Source: Parcubacteria group bacterium GW2011_GWE2_39_37 (GTDB lineage Bacteria > Patescibacteriota > Patescibacteriia > Patescibacteriales > GWE2-39-37). Taken from it: DNA of 64,000 nucleotides. Below the pieces are notes generated by a model. The model made no database searches and had not been told where the DNA came from. It saw only the letters and a list, made by a program, of their open reading frames with translations. Shown here piece by piece: positions 61,387 to 64,000 of this stretch (positions are counted from its first letter, which is position 1; each line of letters opens with the position of its first letter). A program made the translations under genes and the position numbers. Location of the stretch: positions 501 through 64,500 of the forward strand of contig LBWY01000001.1 of NCBI GenBank assembly GCA_000995135.1, read 5' to 3'.

Positions 61387-62463
61387 ATGATAATTCTAGG
61401 AATCGAATCCAGTTGCGACGAAACTGCTACCTCTGTTATTGAGGGGGTAGGCGATAAGGTTAAGGTTTTGTCGAATATTGTTTCCTCACAAATTGAAATC
61501 CATAAAAAATACGGCGGAGTAGTGCCGGAAATCGCTGCGCGCGAACATGTTTTGAATATCTTGCCGGTGATTAATGAGGCTTTGGAAAAGGCTGGAATAA
61601 AAATCCCCCCAACCCCCTTTGTTAAAGGGGGCTTTATTGATGGGATTGCGGTTGCTACTGGGCCGGGGTTGGTTACTTCATTACTCGTCGGAGTAGAATC
61701 AGCCAAGACGCTAGCCTATGCTTGGCAAATTCCTAGCATTGCTGTGAATCATATCGAAGGACATATCTATGCAAATTTTATTGATCGGGAAAAAATACAA
61801 TTTCCTGCTTTAGTTCTTACGGTGTCCGGTGGTCATACCAATCTTGTACTCATGAAAAGTCATGGCAAATTACAGATCATTGGCGAAACCGTAGACGATG
61901 CTGCCGGAGAGGCTTTTGATAAAGCCGCTCAGCTCATGAAATTGGGTTACCCTGGCGGGCCGGTGGTGTCTGCCTGGGCAGAAAAATATTCAAACCAAAA
62001 AAATTTAACCCCTCTTACCCCCCTTGCCAGGGGGGCTGTAAAACTGCCTCGTCCGATGATGAATAAACCAGGTTTTAATTTTTCTTTCTCCGGTTTAAAG
62101 ACTGCCCTGCTTTATGAATTACAAAAAGATAAAAATTGGAAAAAAAGAATTTCAGAATATTGTCATGAATTTCAACAAGCTGTCGTTGATGTCTTGATTT
62201 ACAAAACCATTAAGGCTGCGGAGCAATATAAAGTTAAAACCGTCATGCTTTCCGGAGGTGTTTCTGCCAACAAAGCTTTGCGATTGCAACTTGAACAGGC
62301 GGTAAAAGATAAATTAAATTATGTCTCATTCCTAATGCCAGAATTAAAATATACCACCGACAATGCCGCCATGATTGCAACGGCCGGCTATTTCAAAGCA
62401 CAAAGAAAAAAATTTACGCCTTGGCAAAAATTAAAAGTTGATTCAAACTTGGAATTAAAATAA
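61387..62463 (+). CDS. tsaD: tRNA N6-adenosine threonylcarbamoyltransferase TsaD
   Basis: ILGIESSCDET, YGGVVPEIAAREH, GPGL, VSGGHT, DDAAGEAFDK, FSFSGLKT, GGVSAN and TDNAAMIA. Confidence 0.95.
   Translation: MIILGIESSCDETATSVIEGVGDKVKVLSNIVSSQIEIHKKYGGVVPEIAAREHVLNILPVINEALEKAGIKIPPTPFVKGGFIDGIAVATGPGLVTSLLVGVESAKTLAYAWQIPSIAVNHIEGHIYANFIDREKIQFPALVLTVSGGHTNLVLMKSHGKLQIIGETVDDAAGEAFDKAAQLMKLGYPGGPVVSAWAEKYSNQKNLTPLTPLARGAVKLPRPMMNKPGFNFSFSGLKTALLYELQKDKNWKKRISEYCHEFQQAVVDVLIYKTIKAAEQYKVKTVMLSGGVSANKALRLQLEQAVKDKLNYVSFLMPELKYTTDNAAMIATAGYFKAQRKKFTPWQKLKVDSNLELK
61604..61633. repeat. in-frame GC-rich hairpin insertion 1 inside tsaD
   Basis: CCCCCTTT-GTT-AAAGGGGG (61613-61631) encodes ..PPTPFVKGG.., which is absent from E. 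coli TsaD at this position. Confidence 0.6.
62008..62037. repeat. in-frame GC-rich hairpin insertion 2 inside tsaD
   Basis: CCCCCCT-TGCC-AGGGGGG (62018-62035) encodes ..LTPLTPLARGA.., which is absent from E. coli TsaD at this position. Confidence 0.6.
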
Positions 62464-62473
62464 AACTTTTGTA

Positions 62474-62495
62474 GGGACAGGTCGCGACCTGTCCC
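62474..62495. repeat. GC-rich palindrome GGGACAGGTCGCGACCTGTCCC
   Basis: Perfect 22-nt palindrome 10 nt after the tsaD stop. Confidence 0.7.
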
Positions 62496-62514
62496 CACGG
62501 CGCAAAGATGCGAA

Positions 62515-62543
62515 TTGACTAAATTTTCAACAGTTGCTAAAAT
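62515..62543 (+). promoter_or_regulatory. near-consensus sigma70 promoter of the T-box leader
   Basis: TTGACT-17 nt-TAAAAT. Confidence 0.65.
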
Positions 62544-62554
62544 ACTTATAGATC

Positions 62555-62860
62555 TTAAACAATCACAAAACCCACAGCTAGATCCCTTGGAATACCAAGG
62601 GGCTGGGTCTAGTTTATCTGCCTTGTGCAGAAGGGTGGTCTTTGCGCTAGTGAAGACCCGGCTTCCTCCGTAACCATAGGATAACTGATGTCTTTGACCC
62701 TGAGCTTGTCGAAGGGTTACCTTGAGTCAGTGAGCCTCGCTAATTACAAAATGCGAGGAAATAAAGGTGGTACCACGGGAATAACCTCTCGTCCTTTAGT
62801 CTATTACATTTGCTATCAAACAGCTTTGTCATGGACTAAAAGACAAGGGGTTTTTTGTTT
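62555..62860 (+). promoter_or_regulatory. T-box riboswitch leader
   Basis: AAAGG-UGGUACC-ACGGGA-AUAACC-UCUCGU-CCUUU folds as a canonical antiterminator with a 7-nt UGGNACC bulge (62763-62797). Stem III (CCTCGC/GCGAGG) lies directly upstream. The competing terminator is CCTCTCGTCCTTTAGTC / GACTAAAAGACAAGGGG followed by T6. Confidence 0.8.
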
Positions 62861-62890
62861 TAAACGCACTTTGAACAAAAAGGAGAAGCT

Positions 62891-63016
62891 ATGAGTTACA
62901 AAACCTGTACACCTTGCAAAATAAAGGTGCTCATGAACTCGGATGGCAAATTCATCTGCCCCAGATGCGGAAAGGAAGTAAAAAAGCATGATCCGGTAGG
63001 ATGGGGCCATAGTTAA
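62891..63016 (+). CDS. 41-aa zinc-ribbon protein (CxxC...CxxC)
   Basis: AAGGAG lies 6 nt upstream of the ATG. MSYKTCTPCKIKVLMNSDGKFICPRCGKEVKKHDPVGWGHS. Not in the ORF track because it is shorter than 60 aa. Confidence 0.55.
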   Translation: MSYKTCTPCKIKVLMNSDGKFICPRCGKEVKKHDPVGWGHS

Positions 63017-63020
63017 GCAA

Positions 63021-63048
63021 GGGGGCAAATCATTTGCCCCTATTTTTT
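63021..63048 (+). terminator. strong rho-independent terminator between the small ORF and trpS
   Basis: GGGGCAAA-TCA-TTTGCCCC, then TA and T6. Confidence 0.75.
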
Positions 63049-63088
63049 AAGGTTTACTTATTTATAAAGAAAAATTATAATTATCTAT

Positions 63089-64000
63089 ATGACTAACGCA
63101 AACAAACAAACGATTTTTTCCGGCGTACAGCCGACCGGCAATCTGCACTTGGGAAATTACCTGGGAGCAATTTCTCAGTGGGTGCCGATGCAAGAACAAT
63201 ATAACGCAATTTTTTGCGTGGTGGATTATCACGCCATTACCGTCAAACAGGATCCGGCTGATTTAAATAAAAGGATAGTAGAAATTGTGAGACACTATCT
63301 AGCCAGCGGTATTAATCCAAAAAAATCTGTTATTTTTCAGCAGTCTGCTATCACTGCTCATACCGAGTTAGCTTGGATATTAAATACGGTGGCAAGAATC
63401 TCAGACCTTAAAAAAATGACTCAGTTCAAAGATAAGGCAGGCAAAGATCAAGAAAATGTCAGTGTTGGCCTCTTTGACTATCCGGTGCTGATGGCTGCAG
63501 ACATTCTTCTTTATAATACCGATGCTGTACCGGTTGGCGAAGACCAAAAACAACACGTTGAACTTTGCCGTGATTTGGCAAAAAGATTCAATCATCAGTT
63601 TGGTGAAACTTTCAAAATTCCCGAGGTTATCATGCGCAAAGAAGGCGCACGCATCATGGGCTTGGATGACCCAACAAAGAAGATGAGTAAAAGCGCTTCC
63701 AGTCCGGTCAATTACATCGCCCTGAATGACACACCAGAGGTGGCGGCAAAAAAAATCATGCGTGCAACAACAGATTCAGGCACAGAAATAAAATATGACA
63801 AAGAAAATAAACCGGCCATTGCCAACTTGCTTACAATCTATTCTTTGTTAGACAACAAAACTATTAAAGAGCTGGAAAAACAATATATTGGAAAAGGCTA
63901 TGGCGATTTCAAAAAAGATTTGGCAGAAGTCGTAAAAAACTTTTTGGTAAAATACCAAGAAAAATATAATAGTTACACTGACGAGGAAATAAAAACTATT
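63089..64000 (+). CDS. trpS: tryptophan--tRNA ligase (3'-partial; runs off the window)
   Basis: My own translation: MTNANKQTIFSGVQPTGNLHLGNYLGA...KMSKS...; open to position 64000. Confidence 0.95.
   Translation, partial: MTNANKQTIFSGVQPTGNLHLGNYLGAISQWVPMQEQYNAIFCVVDYHAITVKQDPADLNKRIVEIVRHYLASGINPKKSVIFQQSAITAHTELAWILNTVARISDLKKMTQFKDKAGKDQENVSVGLFDYPVLMAADILLYNTDAVPVGEDQKQHVELCRDLAKRFNHQFGETFKIPEVIMRKEGARIMGLDDPTKKMSKSASSPVNYIALNDTPEVAAKKIMRATTDSGTEIKYDKENKPAIANLLTIYSLLDNKTIKELEKQYIGKGYGDFKKDLAEVVKNFLVKYQEKYNSYTDEEIKTI

What the first reader, a model, noticed from the sequence alone, without database searches (positions are those of the whole stretch)
62515..63048. Canonical T-box antiterminator that feeds into a 41-aa zinc-ribbon ORF and a strong terminator before trpS
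- The promoter (TTGACT-17-TAAAAT), Stem III, the antiterminator (A1 AAAGG/CCUUU, 7-nt bulge UGGUACC, A2 ACGGGA/UCUCGU) and the mutually exclusive terminator plus U6 are all textbook.
- The first downstream gene is not trpS. It is a well-initiated (AAGGAG) 41-codon CxxC...CxxC ORF containing a single Trp.
- This ORF is followed by a perfect GGGGCAAA/TTTGCCCC hairpin plus T6. trpS starts 41 nt further on, behind its own TATAAT-like box.

Either the T-box now controls only the mini-protein, or trpS expression needs read-through of a second terminator.

Two further oddities:
- The bulge reads UGGU, which implies an A73 tRNA. Bacterial tRNA-Trp, as I remember it, usually has G73.
- I could not place a convincing Stem I or specifier. 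A UGG at 62604-62606 sits on the 3' side of the first hairpin, and a UUG-A sits at the base of the 62683-62737 hairpin. Part of the leader (62697-62722, GACCCTGAGCTTGTCGAAGGGT) looks like one of the dispersed GC-rich repeat elements.
Basis: partly seen in the sequence, partly recalled or inferred. Interest (0 to 1): 0.6.

Follow-up and report, generated by a model that had tools for sequence, protein, structure and literature searches.

The report
Tryptophan T-box driving zinc-ribbon mini-protein
A real tRNA-sensing RNA switch for tryptophan, of a compact short-stemmed type that standard annotation misses, turns on a conserved 41-residue zinc-ribbon protein with a Gly-Trp-Gly tail in an ultra-small (Patescibacteria/CPR) bacterium, while the neighbouring Trp-tRNA synthetase gene appears to be a separate unit.

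Summary

**The leader.** It is a genuine tRNA-Trp T-box, but only its 3' half is canonical. Rfam scores it 41.7 bits against a gathering score of 93.
- The 5' half is a compact domain: a short Stem I without an elbow platform, the specifier UGG (62604-62606) in a 5-nt 3' bulge, a second hairpin, an enclosing helix, Stem II and the IIA/B pseudoknot.
- A covariance model of this domain finds 78 copies in 71 of 316 genomes of the order. Cells are 98% paired and 28 of 35 pairs show compensatory changes.
- 74 copies carry UGG and precede trp genes. Four carry UGC, precede cysK-type genes and have a UGGA bulge.

**The UGGU bulge.** It does not imply A73. All 29 tRNA-Trp genes recovered from relatives have G73, so the U makes a G.U wobble.

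**The 41-aa ORF.** It is a real gene. Its relatives are zinc ribbons with a G-W/F-G motif, and they sit directly behind this T-box in many lineages. In several genomes they are the only T-box target.

**trpS.** It follows a strong terminator and a -10 box 7 nt before its ATG, so it is probably transcribed separately.

The mini-protein's function is unknown. The nearest analogy is anti-TRAP.

The parts
62515..62543 (+). Sigma-70-like promoter of the T-box leader: TTGACT, 17 nt, TG-TAAAAT
   Evidence: Consensus scan, 10 of 12 matches with an extended TG. The conserved 5' domain starts about 17 nt after the -10 box.
62560..62697 (+). Compact T-box 5' domain. P0 helix ACCC 62570-62573 pairs with GGGU 62633-62636. 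Stem I lower helix is 62576-62583 with 62607-62614; upper helix is 62584-62590 with 62595-62601. Hairpin 2 is 62617-62631. Stem II is 62637-62658. IIA is 62659-62670, and the IIB pseudoknot pairs UCCU 62664-62667 with AGGA 62678-62681.
   Evidence: Model R1 scores it 140.4 bits. RNAalifold consensus. Pair counts on 78 homologues: 98.1% paired and 28 of 35 pairs with changes on both sides.
62602..62607 (+). Specifier bulge GC-UGG followed by an invariant G. The Trp codon UGG is at 62604-62606.
   Evidence: 74 of 78 homologues have R-Y/A-UGG-G at these columns. The 4 exceptions have UGC-G, precede cysK-type genes and have a UGGA bulge.
62683..62737 (+). Variable hairpin inserted between the pseudoknot and Stem III. 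It carries the CCCTGAGCTTGTCGAAGGG element.
   Evidence: Rfam treats it as a 46-nt insertion. The element has one copy in this genome, 8 copies of a related hairpin element, and 95-100% identical copies in other genomes.
62735..62758 (+). Stem III
   Evidence: Rfam alignment and folds.
62762..62798 (+). Antiterminator with the T-box bulge UGGUACC (62768-62774)
   Evidence: Rfam alignment with high posterior probability. Fold of -9.4 kcal/mol.
62783..62856 (+). Intrinsic terminator of the T-box. It shares 62787-62798 with the antiterminator and ends in U6.
   Evidence: Fold of -27.8 kcal/mol.
62880..63016 (+). SD AAGGAG followed by the 41-aa zinc-ribbon gene (ATG at 62891, GWG codons at 62999-63007, stop at 63014-63016)
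   Evidence: - ORF list.
- 63% identical homologue in G083, with 12 of 24 identical residues encoded by different codons.
- Subfamily members P0085 and P0047 also lie behind the same T-box.
- AF2 model: zinc ribbon plus a disordered tail.
63021..63048 (+). Intrinsic terminator after the mini-gene
   Evidence: 9-bp stem, -13.9 kcal/mol, T6. 7 of the 15 strictly defined relatives also have a terminator here.
63053..63081 (+). Promoter-like TTTACT-17-TATAAT. The -10 box ends 7 nt before the trpS ATG (leaderless-type arrangement).
   Evidence: Scan. Same geometry before trpS in G041 and G072. Consensus match only.
63089..64000 (+). trpS (332 aa; runs past the end of the window)
   Evidence: PF00579 at E 2.9e-82. 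Full ORF read from the genome.

Best explanation
The leader at 62545-62856 is a transcription-attenuating T-box riboswitch that reads uncharged tRNA-Trp.

Its tRNA-decoding half is a compact variant. Stem I is short and has no distal T-loop platform. The UGG specifier sits in a side bulge between the two Stem I helices. Stem II and the IIA/B pseudoknot lie next to it, and all of this is closed by an extra helix and a second hairpin.

Proposed mechanism:
- Uncharged tRNA-Trp pairs its CCA anticodon with UGG.
- Its G73-C-C-A end pairs with UGGU (G.U wobble) in the antiterminator bulge.
- This stabilises the antiterminator against the -27.8 kcal/mol terminator.

Read-through transcripts encode one gene, a 41-aa zinc-ribbon protein with a flexible basic tail ending in Gly-Trp-Gly. 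They then mostly stop at the strong terminator at 63021-63048. trpS is expressed mainly from its own promoter as a leaderless or near-leaderless mRNA, with at most a leak-through contribution from the T-box.

The mini-protein is inferred to be a trans-acting product of the Trp-starvation signal. The logic resembles anti-TRAP, but the target is unknown.

Shown: the RNA architecture, the specifier, the conservation of the gene and its linkage to the switch.
Inferred: tRNA binding, terminator efficiencies, the trpS promoter and the protein's role.
For: **RNA**
- Rfam T-box match over the discriminator half.
- Mutually exclusive antiterminator and terminator.
- The 5' domain model hits 78 loci in 71 of 316 genomes of the order.
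- 98.1% of cells are paired and 28 of 35 pairs carry compensatory changes. The covariation score is 0.688, against 0.255 when shuffled and at most 0.139 when slid.

**Specifier**
- UGG in 74 of 78 copies, in front of trpS, trpE-G-D, trpB and similar genes.
- UGC in 4 of 78 copies, in front of cysK-type genes and with a UGGA bulge. This genome's tRNA-Cys has U73.

**Discriminator**
- G73 in 29 of 29 tRNA-Trp genes from relatives, with either UGGC or UGGU in the T-box.

**Gene**
- Homologues in G083, L243 and L244 all lie behind the same T-box.
- ORFs with two Cys pairs plus G[WF]G occupy the slot after the T-box in 15 of 68 loci under strict criteria, and about 30 under looser ones. Among all 30-80 aa ORFs the rate is 0.75%.
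- In G026, G009, G142, G049, G061 and G043 the genome's single T-box hit is followed only by such a mini-gene.
- This genome has one such T-box and no trp biosynthesis genes.

**Separate trpS**
- Terminator plus a -10 box 7 nt before the ATG here; the same arrangement (terminator, then a -10 box 6 nt before the ATG) in G072, and a -10 box 8 nt before the ATG in G041.
- The mini-gene has a strong SD in a genome where SD motifs sit at background level, 9% against 10%.
Against: - Termination efficiency at 63021-63048 and use of the trpS promoter are therefore untested.
- Promoter-like matches are not enriched over shuffles.
- The T-box plus mini-gene unit lies next to trpS in about 13 loci, and in some relatives mini-gene, trpB and trpS look like one operon. 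Some coupling to trpS is therefore plausible.
- This genome's own tRNA-Trp is missing from the 82%-complete assembly.
- Across subfamilies the mini-proteins are only 16-60% identical to the window's protein. Family membership therefore rests partly on motif and context.
Confidence: 0.72

Rival explanations
1. The T-box still regulates trpS. The mini-gene and trpS are co-transcribed, and trpS induction under Trp starvation depends on partial read-through of the second terminator.
For: - The T-box plus mini-gene unit sits upstream of trpS in about 13 loci.
- In L091, L096 and L098 the order is mini-gene, trpB2, trpS, with no opposite-strand gene between them.
- The trpS promoter is only a consensus match, and such matches are not enriched over shuffles.
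Against: - Strong terminator (9-bp stem, -13.9 kcal/mol, T6) 5 nt after the stop codon.
- The -10 box 7 nt before the ATG recurs in G041 and G072.
- Stand-alone T-box plus mini-gene units exist in at least 6 genomes.
Confidence: 0.3
2. The mini-ORF is a cis-acting leader peptide. Ribosome progress through its single UGG codon (63002-63004) controls formation of the terminator at 63021-63041, as in trp attenuation or rtpLP.
For: - The Trp codon lies 4 codons before the stop, and the stop lies 5 nt before the hairpin.
- A ribosome at the stop codon would cover the hairpin's 5' arm. This is geometry only; no test was done.
Against: - Several relatives have GFG and no Trp codon at all (L063, L079, L094, L099, L107).
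- The cysteine pairs and the glycines flanking the aromatic residue are conserved at protein level with synonymous codon changes.
- Many units have no downstream gene to regulate.
Confidence: 0.07
3. The mini-protein is a precursor or scaffold peptide modified by a radical SAM/SPASM enzyme (RiPP-like). The modification would fall on its Cys residues or its GWG tail.
For: In L062 and L070 a mini-gene is immediately followed by a radical SAM/SPASM gene and a DUF169 gene, all under the same Trp T-box.
Against: - No homologue of that radical SAM, or of DUF169, is found in this genome.
- L056 and L090 have the enzyme pair without a mini-gene.
- Most mini-genes have no such neighbour.
Confidence: 0.07
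4. The ORF is a chance open frame in a long T-box-to-trpS spacer and makes no functional product.
For: - No Pfam or NCBIfam family reaches its threshold.
- The single-sequence homology search found nothing.
Against: - 63% identical homologue with synonymous substitutions.
- 4 of 4 subfamily members lie behind the same T-box.
- Strong SD.
- Motif enrichment of 22% against 0.75%.
Confidence: 0.03

Closest known systems
Class IV T-box riboswitches (e.g. Actinomyces odontolyticus ileS), as classified in PMC10482949
   Same: - Stem I of short or intermediate length without the interdigitated T-loop platform.
[quoted passage not shown]
- Stem II and the IIA/B pseudoknot are present.
   Different: - The output here is a transcription terminator rather than SD sequestration.
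- The specifier is Trp rather than Ile.
- The host is Patescibacteria rather than Actinobacteria.
- An extra enclosing helix (P0) and a second hairpin form a three-way junction.
Class I transcriptional T-boxes (Rfam RF00230; Bacillus subtilis tyrS and trpS leaders)
   Same: - Stem III.
- Antiterminator with a UGGN bulge.
- Competing intrinsic terminator.
- Stem IIA/B element.
- Trp specifier, as in trpS.
   Different: - No long Stem I, K-turn, AG bulge or distal loop.
- The score is 41.7 bits against a gathering score of 93.
Bacillus subtilis rtpA (yczA) anti-TRAP under a tRNA-Trp T-box (PMC11255114)
   Same: A very small zinc-binding protein (53 aa there, 41 aa here) whose synthesis is switched on by a T-box that senses uncharged tRNA-Trp.
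   Different: - No detectable sequence relationship.
- TRAP is absent from this genome and from 60 relatives.
- There is no leader peptide between the T-box and the gene.
LysW-type amino-group carrier proteins
   Same: A zinc-ribbon globule of about 50 aa with a flexible C-terminal tail carrying a Trp-Gly motif. LysW chains appear among the weak Foldseek and HMM matches.
   Different: The matches are not significant (E 0.02-1.6). The tail here is basic and ends in GWGHS. It is not the acidic EDWGE tail with a terminal Glu, a feature I recall from memory.
Small archaeal zinc-ribbon ribosome- and RNA-binding proteins (HVO_2753 family; M. acetivorans ribosome-bound zinc-finger protein 9o17_AZ)
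   Same: These are the best sub-threshold sequence matches: NF041909 at E 5.9e-6 and 9o17_AZ at E 1.6e-5.
   Different: The scores are far below the family cut-offs (26 bits against 80). The similarity is essentially the two CxxC knuckles.

Membership tests
T-box leader (RF00230) | Antiterminator with a 7-nt bulge UGGNACC, flanked by helices A1 and A2 | tested here: met
   UGGUACC at 62768-62774. Rfam alignment with high posterior probability. Fold of -9.4 kcal/mol.
T-box leader (RF00230) | Competing terminator (or sequestrator) that overlaps the 3' side of the antiterminator | tested here: met
   Terminator at 62783-62852, -27.8 kcal/mol, plus U6. It shares 62787-62798 with the antiterminator.
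T-box leader (RF00230) | Specifier codon that matches the amino acid of the regulated genes | tested here: met
   UGG sits in the bulge in 74 of 78 homologues, in front of trp genes. UGC sits there in 4 of 78, in front of cysK-type genes.
T-box leader (RF00230) | The N of UGGN is complementary to the tRNA discriminator base | tested here: met
   G73 in 29 of 29 tRNA-Trp genes of relatives, so N = C or U gives a C-G pair or a U.G wobble. The Cys and Thr T-boxes have UGGA with U73 tRNAs. This genome's own tRNA-Trp is not in the assembly.
T-box leader (RF00230) | Score at or above Rfam's gathering threshold | tested here: not met
   41.7 bits against 93. All three T-boxes of this genome fall below the threshold.
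T-box leader (RF00230) | Binds cognate uncharged tRNA and increases read-through | not testable with these tools
   Needs in vitro transcription or binding assays.
Class I T-box | Long Stem I with a K-turn, a specifier internal loop and a distal interdigitated T-loop platform | tested here: not met
   Stem I is 15 bp with a tetraloop. Rfam could not align Stem I. Structure.
Class IV T-box (PMC10482949) | [quoted passage not shown] | tested here: met
   5-nt 3' bulge GCUGG between the 8-bp and 7-bp helices. Definition read.
Class IV T-box (PMC10482949) | Stem II domain and IIA/B pseudoknot present | tested here: met
   Stem II has 9 pairs, 6 of them with compensatory changes. The IIB pairing has 4 of 4 pairs compensatory and 100% paired cells.
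Class IV T-box (PMC10482949) | Regulates translation initiation (true of most members) | tested here: not met
   The expression platform is an intrinsic terminator with U6. The SD lies 24 nt beyond it.
Anti-TRAP (rtpA) | Small zinc-binding protein induced through a tRNA-Trp T-box | tested here: met
   Met by context and by the CxxC...CxxC sequence. Zinc binding itself is not tested.
Anti-TRAP (rtpA) | Sequence homology to anti-TRAP | tested here: not met
   No anti-TRAP family appears among the Pfam or NCBIfam hits at E up to 1-10, and no anti-TRAP chain appears among the PDB matches shown (the best 60 of 165 HMM hits and the top 50 of 172 Foldseek hits).
Anti-TRAP (rtpA) | Its target, TRAP (mtrB, PF02081), is encoded in the genome | tested here: not met
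   0 of 61 genomes match; the control rings in B. subtilis.
LysW-type amino-group carrier protein | Acidic C-terminal tail ending in EDWGE with a terminal Glu for substrate attachment (feature recalled from memory) | tested here: not met
   The tail is KKHDPVGWGHS. Relatives end in GWGGK, GWGN, GWQ and similar.
Radical-SAM RiPP precursor | Adjacent or co-encoded radical SAM/SPASM maturase | tested here: not met
   No homologue in this genome. One is present next to the mini-genes in L062 and L070 only.

The most novel reading that the evidence does not exclude
Patescibacteria use a platform-less, transcription-terminating T-box class whose main output is a family of tiny zinc-ribbon proteins carrying an exposed Gly-Trp/Phe-Gly plug. 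In several genomes, probably including this Trp-auxotrophic one, that family is the only output.

These proteins would be trans-acting effectors of the tryptophan-starvation signal. They would be a functional analogue of anti-TRAP without TRAP. The tail would dock into an aromatic or Trp pocket of a partner such as TrpRS, the ribosome or a Trp-consuming enzyme.
Probability: 0.3. Interest if true: 0.8.

Novelty: new variant of a known kind. Interest (0 to 1): 0.6.

Why it matters
**For T-box biology.** Transcriptional T-boxes are thought to rely on the Stem I elbow platform. Platform-less classes III and IV are described mostly as translational switches of Actinobacteria (PMC10482949). Here a platform-less 5' domain is joined to a terminator. 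It has strong covariation support and is widespread in one order of Patescibacteria. It falls below Rfam's cut-off, so T-box regulons in these genomes are under-annotated.

**For the physiology of ultra-small symbionts.** This organism has no detectable Trp pathway. Even so, it keeps a Trp sensor whose direct product is a 41-aa zinc-ribbon protein. Finding that protein's partner would show how an auxotrophic, host-dependent cell responds to shortage of one amino acid.

I found no paper in the searchable library linking T-boxes to CPR or Patescibacteria. Earlier notes of this scan report the same theme in other genomes, so this window is one more member of that group and not a first sighting.

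Tried and rejected
- **Single-sequence homology search with the 41-aa protein.** No candidates.
- **Pfam and NCBIfam.** Only generic zinc-ribbon hits, all below threshold.
- **Profile search of 1.84 billion representative proteins with A4.** Mostly multi-zinc-finger noise. It did recover small family members (P0033, P0047, P0050, P0085, P0090, P0135, P0138).
- **AF2 model plus Foldseek against PDB.** Only generic zinc ribbons (Rpb9, RPA, LysW, ribosomal proteins), none at E <= 0.001.
- **80 trpS loci from GTDB genomes.** Only one had the T-box within 2.5 kb, so this route gave organism names but few loci.
- **TRAP search.** Absent, so a literal anti-TRAP role is rejected.
- **Phylum-wide scan with the order-trained model.** Only 7 further genomes at E <= 1e-5. 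The true breadth is uncertain because the model is order-specific and the filters are strict.
- **UUG-A at the 62683-62737 hairpin as specifier.** Rejected. That hairpin is a variable insertion downstream of the pseudoknot.
- **A73 tRNA-Trp.** Rejected.
Full report
**Setting**

The window is C1:501-64500 of a 0.97-Mb, 38.6% GC, 49-contig genome that is 82.6% complete. The closest TrpRS relatives are MAGs labelled Patescibacteria, Falkowbacteria, Moraniibacteriota and similar. Family members in the protein collection are named 'hypothetical protein' from Parcubacteria or Patescibacteria. Upstream lies tsaD (61387-62463, PF00814). Downstream lies trpS (63089 onward, PF00579 at E 2.9e-82; 332 aa in the full contig).

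**Observation check**

- Promoter TTGACT-17-TAAAAT at 62515-62543.
- Stem III at 62735-62758.
- Antiterminator with helices UAAAGG/CCUUUA and ACGGGA/UCUCGU around the bulge UGGUACC at 62768-62774 (-9.4 kcal/mol).
- A long terminator at 62783-62852 (-27.8 kcal/mol) that shares 62787-62798 with the antiterminator and ends in U6.
- SD AAGGAG at 62880-62885 and the 41-codon ORF at 62891-63016.
- A 9-bp GC-rich hairpin at 63021-63041 plus T6 (-13.9 kcal/mol).
- TTTACT-17-TATAAT at 63053-63081, ending 7 nt before the trpS ATG.

Rfam's T-box model matches 62614-62799 at E 5e-7 but only 41.7 bits against a gathering score of 93. The antiterminator and the IIA element align well. Stem I and Stem II are essentially unaligned, and there is a 46-nt insertion. 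The genome holds two more sub-threshold T-boxes, one before aspS and one before thrS.

**Stem I and the specifier**

The 5' part of the leader (about 62552-62692) is 72-97% identical to DNA in many genomes of the same order. Eleven such leaders align well, and RNAalifold predicts the following:
- An enclosing helix, P0 (ACCC 62570-62573 with GGGU 62633-62636).
- A hairpin with an 8-bp lower helix and a 7-bp upper helix, separated by a 5-nt 3' bulge.
- A second small hairpin.
- A 9-bp Stem II.
- Pairing of the IIA loop (UCCU) with a downstream AGGA, which is the IIB pseudoknot.

A covariance model of this domain (R1) finds 79 matches (78 distinct copies) in 71 of 316 genomes of the order, and exactly one in this genome. 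On the 78 sequences aligned to the model, the pair counts are as follows.

| Measure | Value |
|---|---|
| Cells forming standard pairs | 98.1% |
| Pairs with changes on both sides | 28 of 35 |
| Covariation score, observed | 0.688 |
| Covariation score, shuffled | 0.255 |
| Covariation score, partners slid | at most 0.139 |

The alignment was fitted to the model, which favours the structure. Even so, the slid controls and the many compensatory pair types make the architecture secure.

The bulge reads R-Y/A-UGG followed by an invariant G in 74 of 78 sequences. In this window it is GC-UGG-G, with UGG at 62604-62606. The four exceptions read UGC-G. They precede cysK or cystathionine-type genes, and their antiterminator bulge is UGGA. 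This genome's tRNA-Cys has U73. The exceptions serve as a natural control. The codon at this position tracks the regulated pathway, and the bulge N tracks the discriminator base.

The UGG copies precede trpS, trpE-G-D, trpB1-trpA, trpB2 and a few unknown families.

[quoted passage not shown] They mostly act on translation (PMC10482949). This leader has that 5' design but a transcription terminator as its output, plus the extra P0 helix and hairpin 2.

**The UGGU bulge**

No tRNA-Trp gene is in this assembly. In 29 relatives of the order, every tRNA-Trp has G1.U72 and discriminator G73. This holds both for genomes whose T-box reads UGGU (G002, G004, G011, G025, G060) and for those that read UGGC (G005, G006, G008, G027, G029, G044, G046, G057, G059). 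This genome's aspS T-box also has UGGU while tRNA-Asp has G73. Its thrS T-box has UGGA with U73. U in the bulge therefore stands for a G.U wobble, not for an A73 tRNA.

**The inserted hairpin**

The hairpin at 62683-62737 lies between the pseudoknot and Stem III, where relatives carry variable hairpins. Its core, CCCTGAGCTTGTCGAAGGG, occurs once in this genome. It belongs to the same type as GTCATCCTGAACTTGTTTCAGGATCA, which has 8 copies here. It also recurs at 95-100% identity, often in several copies, in other genomes of the order.

**The mini-ORF is a real, conserved gene tied to this switch**

- G083 encodes MSYIICQSCGTKVEMNKEGKFVCPKCGKEVKPRTVGWGGK, 63% identical to the window's protein. 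Of the 24 identical residues, 12 use different codons.
- Two more subfamily members came from the global library: P0085 (41 aa) and P0047 (40 aa). Each lies behind the same T-box 5' domain (108 and 118 bits) with a UGG bulge. P0085's contig is also syntenic, with the order tsaD, T-box, mini-gene.
- More widely, about 30 of 68 Trp T-box loci have as first gene a 40-75-aa ORF with an SD, two Cys pairs and a G-W/F-G motif. The motif sits at the tip of the ribbon, at the C-terminus, or both.
- Under a strict rule (at least two C-x(1-4)-C plus G[WF]G) the slot holds such an ORF in 15 of 68 loci. Among all 30-80-aa ORFs in six frames the rate is 12 of 1601, and most of those 12 are the same genes.
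- In G026, G009, G142, G049, G061 and G043 the genome's single match to the model is followed only by such a mini-gene and then by opposite-strand genes.
- This genome has no trpE, G, D, B or A, no radical SAM/SPASM of the associated type, no DUF169 and no member of the 267-aa family.
- AF2 with a shallow alignment gives a zinc-ribbon core with pLDDT 84-89 and a low-confidence tail over residues 31-41 that carries GWG.

**trpS**

The terminator after the mini-gene is strong. The -10 box ends 7 nt before the ATG, which has no SD. Similar geometry precedes trpS in G041 (a -10 box 8 nt before the ATG, behind a hairpin that lacks a U-tail) and G072 (a terminator, then a -10 box 6 nt before the ATG). 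SD motifs are at background level in this genome (9% of first ATGs against 10% of internal ATGs). The AAGGAG before the mini-gene therefore stands out. It fits a gene translated from a long-leader mRNA.

I read this as two units, with possible leak-through. This part is inferred. Promoter-like sites are not enriched over shuffles, and transcript data were unavailable.

**What the protein might do**

The logic resembles B. subtilis anti-TRAP, a 53-aa zinc protein induced by a tRNA-Trp T-box (PMC11255114). However, TRAP is absent from 61 genomes and no sequence relationship is detectable.

- A codon-level leader-peptide role is unlikely, because several relatives have GFG and no Trp codon.
- A RiPP-like role is suggested only where a radical SAM/SPASM plus DUF169 pair follows the mini-gene (L062, L070), and that is not the case here.
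- Weak similarities to LysW carriers and to archaeal ribosome-bound zinc ribbons are leads only.

My best reading is a trans-acting starvation effector that docks through its aromatic tail. The target is unknown.

**Relation to earlier notes of this scan**

Several follow-up notes on other genomes describe the same short-stem Trp T-box in front of zinc-ribbon mini-genes. I treated them as leads. The architecture, the specifier, the class-IV comparison and the three-way junction were re-derived here independently.

Noticed in passing
G000:C26:1964-2171 (- strand; locus L001): A sub-threshold T-box (52.4 bits) lies upstream of aspS and has a long, conventional-looking Stem I. About 300 nt of repeat-rich spacer (two GTCATCCTGAACTTGTTTCAGGATC-type hairpins) separates its terminator from the aspS ATG. 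Its bulge is UGGU, although tRNA-Asp has G73.
   Followed up: partly
G000:C23:8137-8361 (- strand; locus L002) and the gene downstream: A T-box with specifier ACU-G and bulge UGGA (tRNA-Thr has U73) lies upstream of thrS. The thrS reading frame is broken near its 5' end: MNNQNQQLETVRHSL-stop in one frame, and ...FTLIGPSIENGFYYD... in another. This is either an assembly error or a frameshift.
   Followed up: partly
Loci L060, L066, L067, L068, L076, L082, L086, L115, L120: An unannotated family of about 267 aa (motif VSTVCPDYPHDGxKYTF, no Pfam hit) is usually followed by a histidine-phosphatase-like protein of about 201 aa (PF00300). The pair is repeatedly the first operon behind the Trp T-box in relatives. 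It may be an unknown Trp-related enzyme pair.
   Followed up: partly
Loci L056, L062, L070, L090: A radical SAM/SPASM enzyme plus a DUF169 protein sit under the Trp T-box. In two of the four loci a GWG or CW-tailed mini-gene comes directly before them.
   Followed up: partly
Loci L118, L123, L127, L128: The same compact T-box architecture occurs with specifier UGC and bulge UGGA, in front of cysK or cystathionine-type genes. In three of the four loci a ParB/Srx-like protein of about 78-130 aa is the first gene.
   Followed up: partly
Loci L079 (second ORF), L080, L113: A second family of small proteins (64-73 aa) lies behind the Trp T-box. They have no cysteines, contain ...IW(R/Q)... and end in ...LW-stop, with Trp as the last residue.
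   Followed up: no
tRNA-Trp genes of 29 relatives (L131-L160): 28 of the 29 have a G1.U72 wobble at the top of the acceptor stem (the G019 copy has G1-C72), and all 29 have G73.
   Followed up: no
whole genome G000: Shine-Dalgarno motifs upstream of first ATGs are at background frequency (9% against 10%). About 30% of the SD-less starts have a TAnnnT box 5-15 nt upstream, which suggests widespread leaderless or SD-independent initiation. The T-box-controlled mini-genes nevertheless carry strong SDs.
   Followed up: partly
window 62466-62500: A GC-rich hairpin, GGGACAGGTCGCGACCTGTCCC (-18.4 kcal/mol), lies after tsaD and has no T-tract. It looks like a dispersed hairpin element and not like a terminator.
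   Followed up: no
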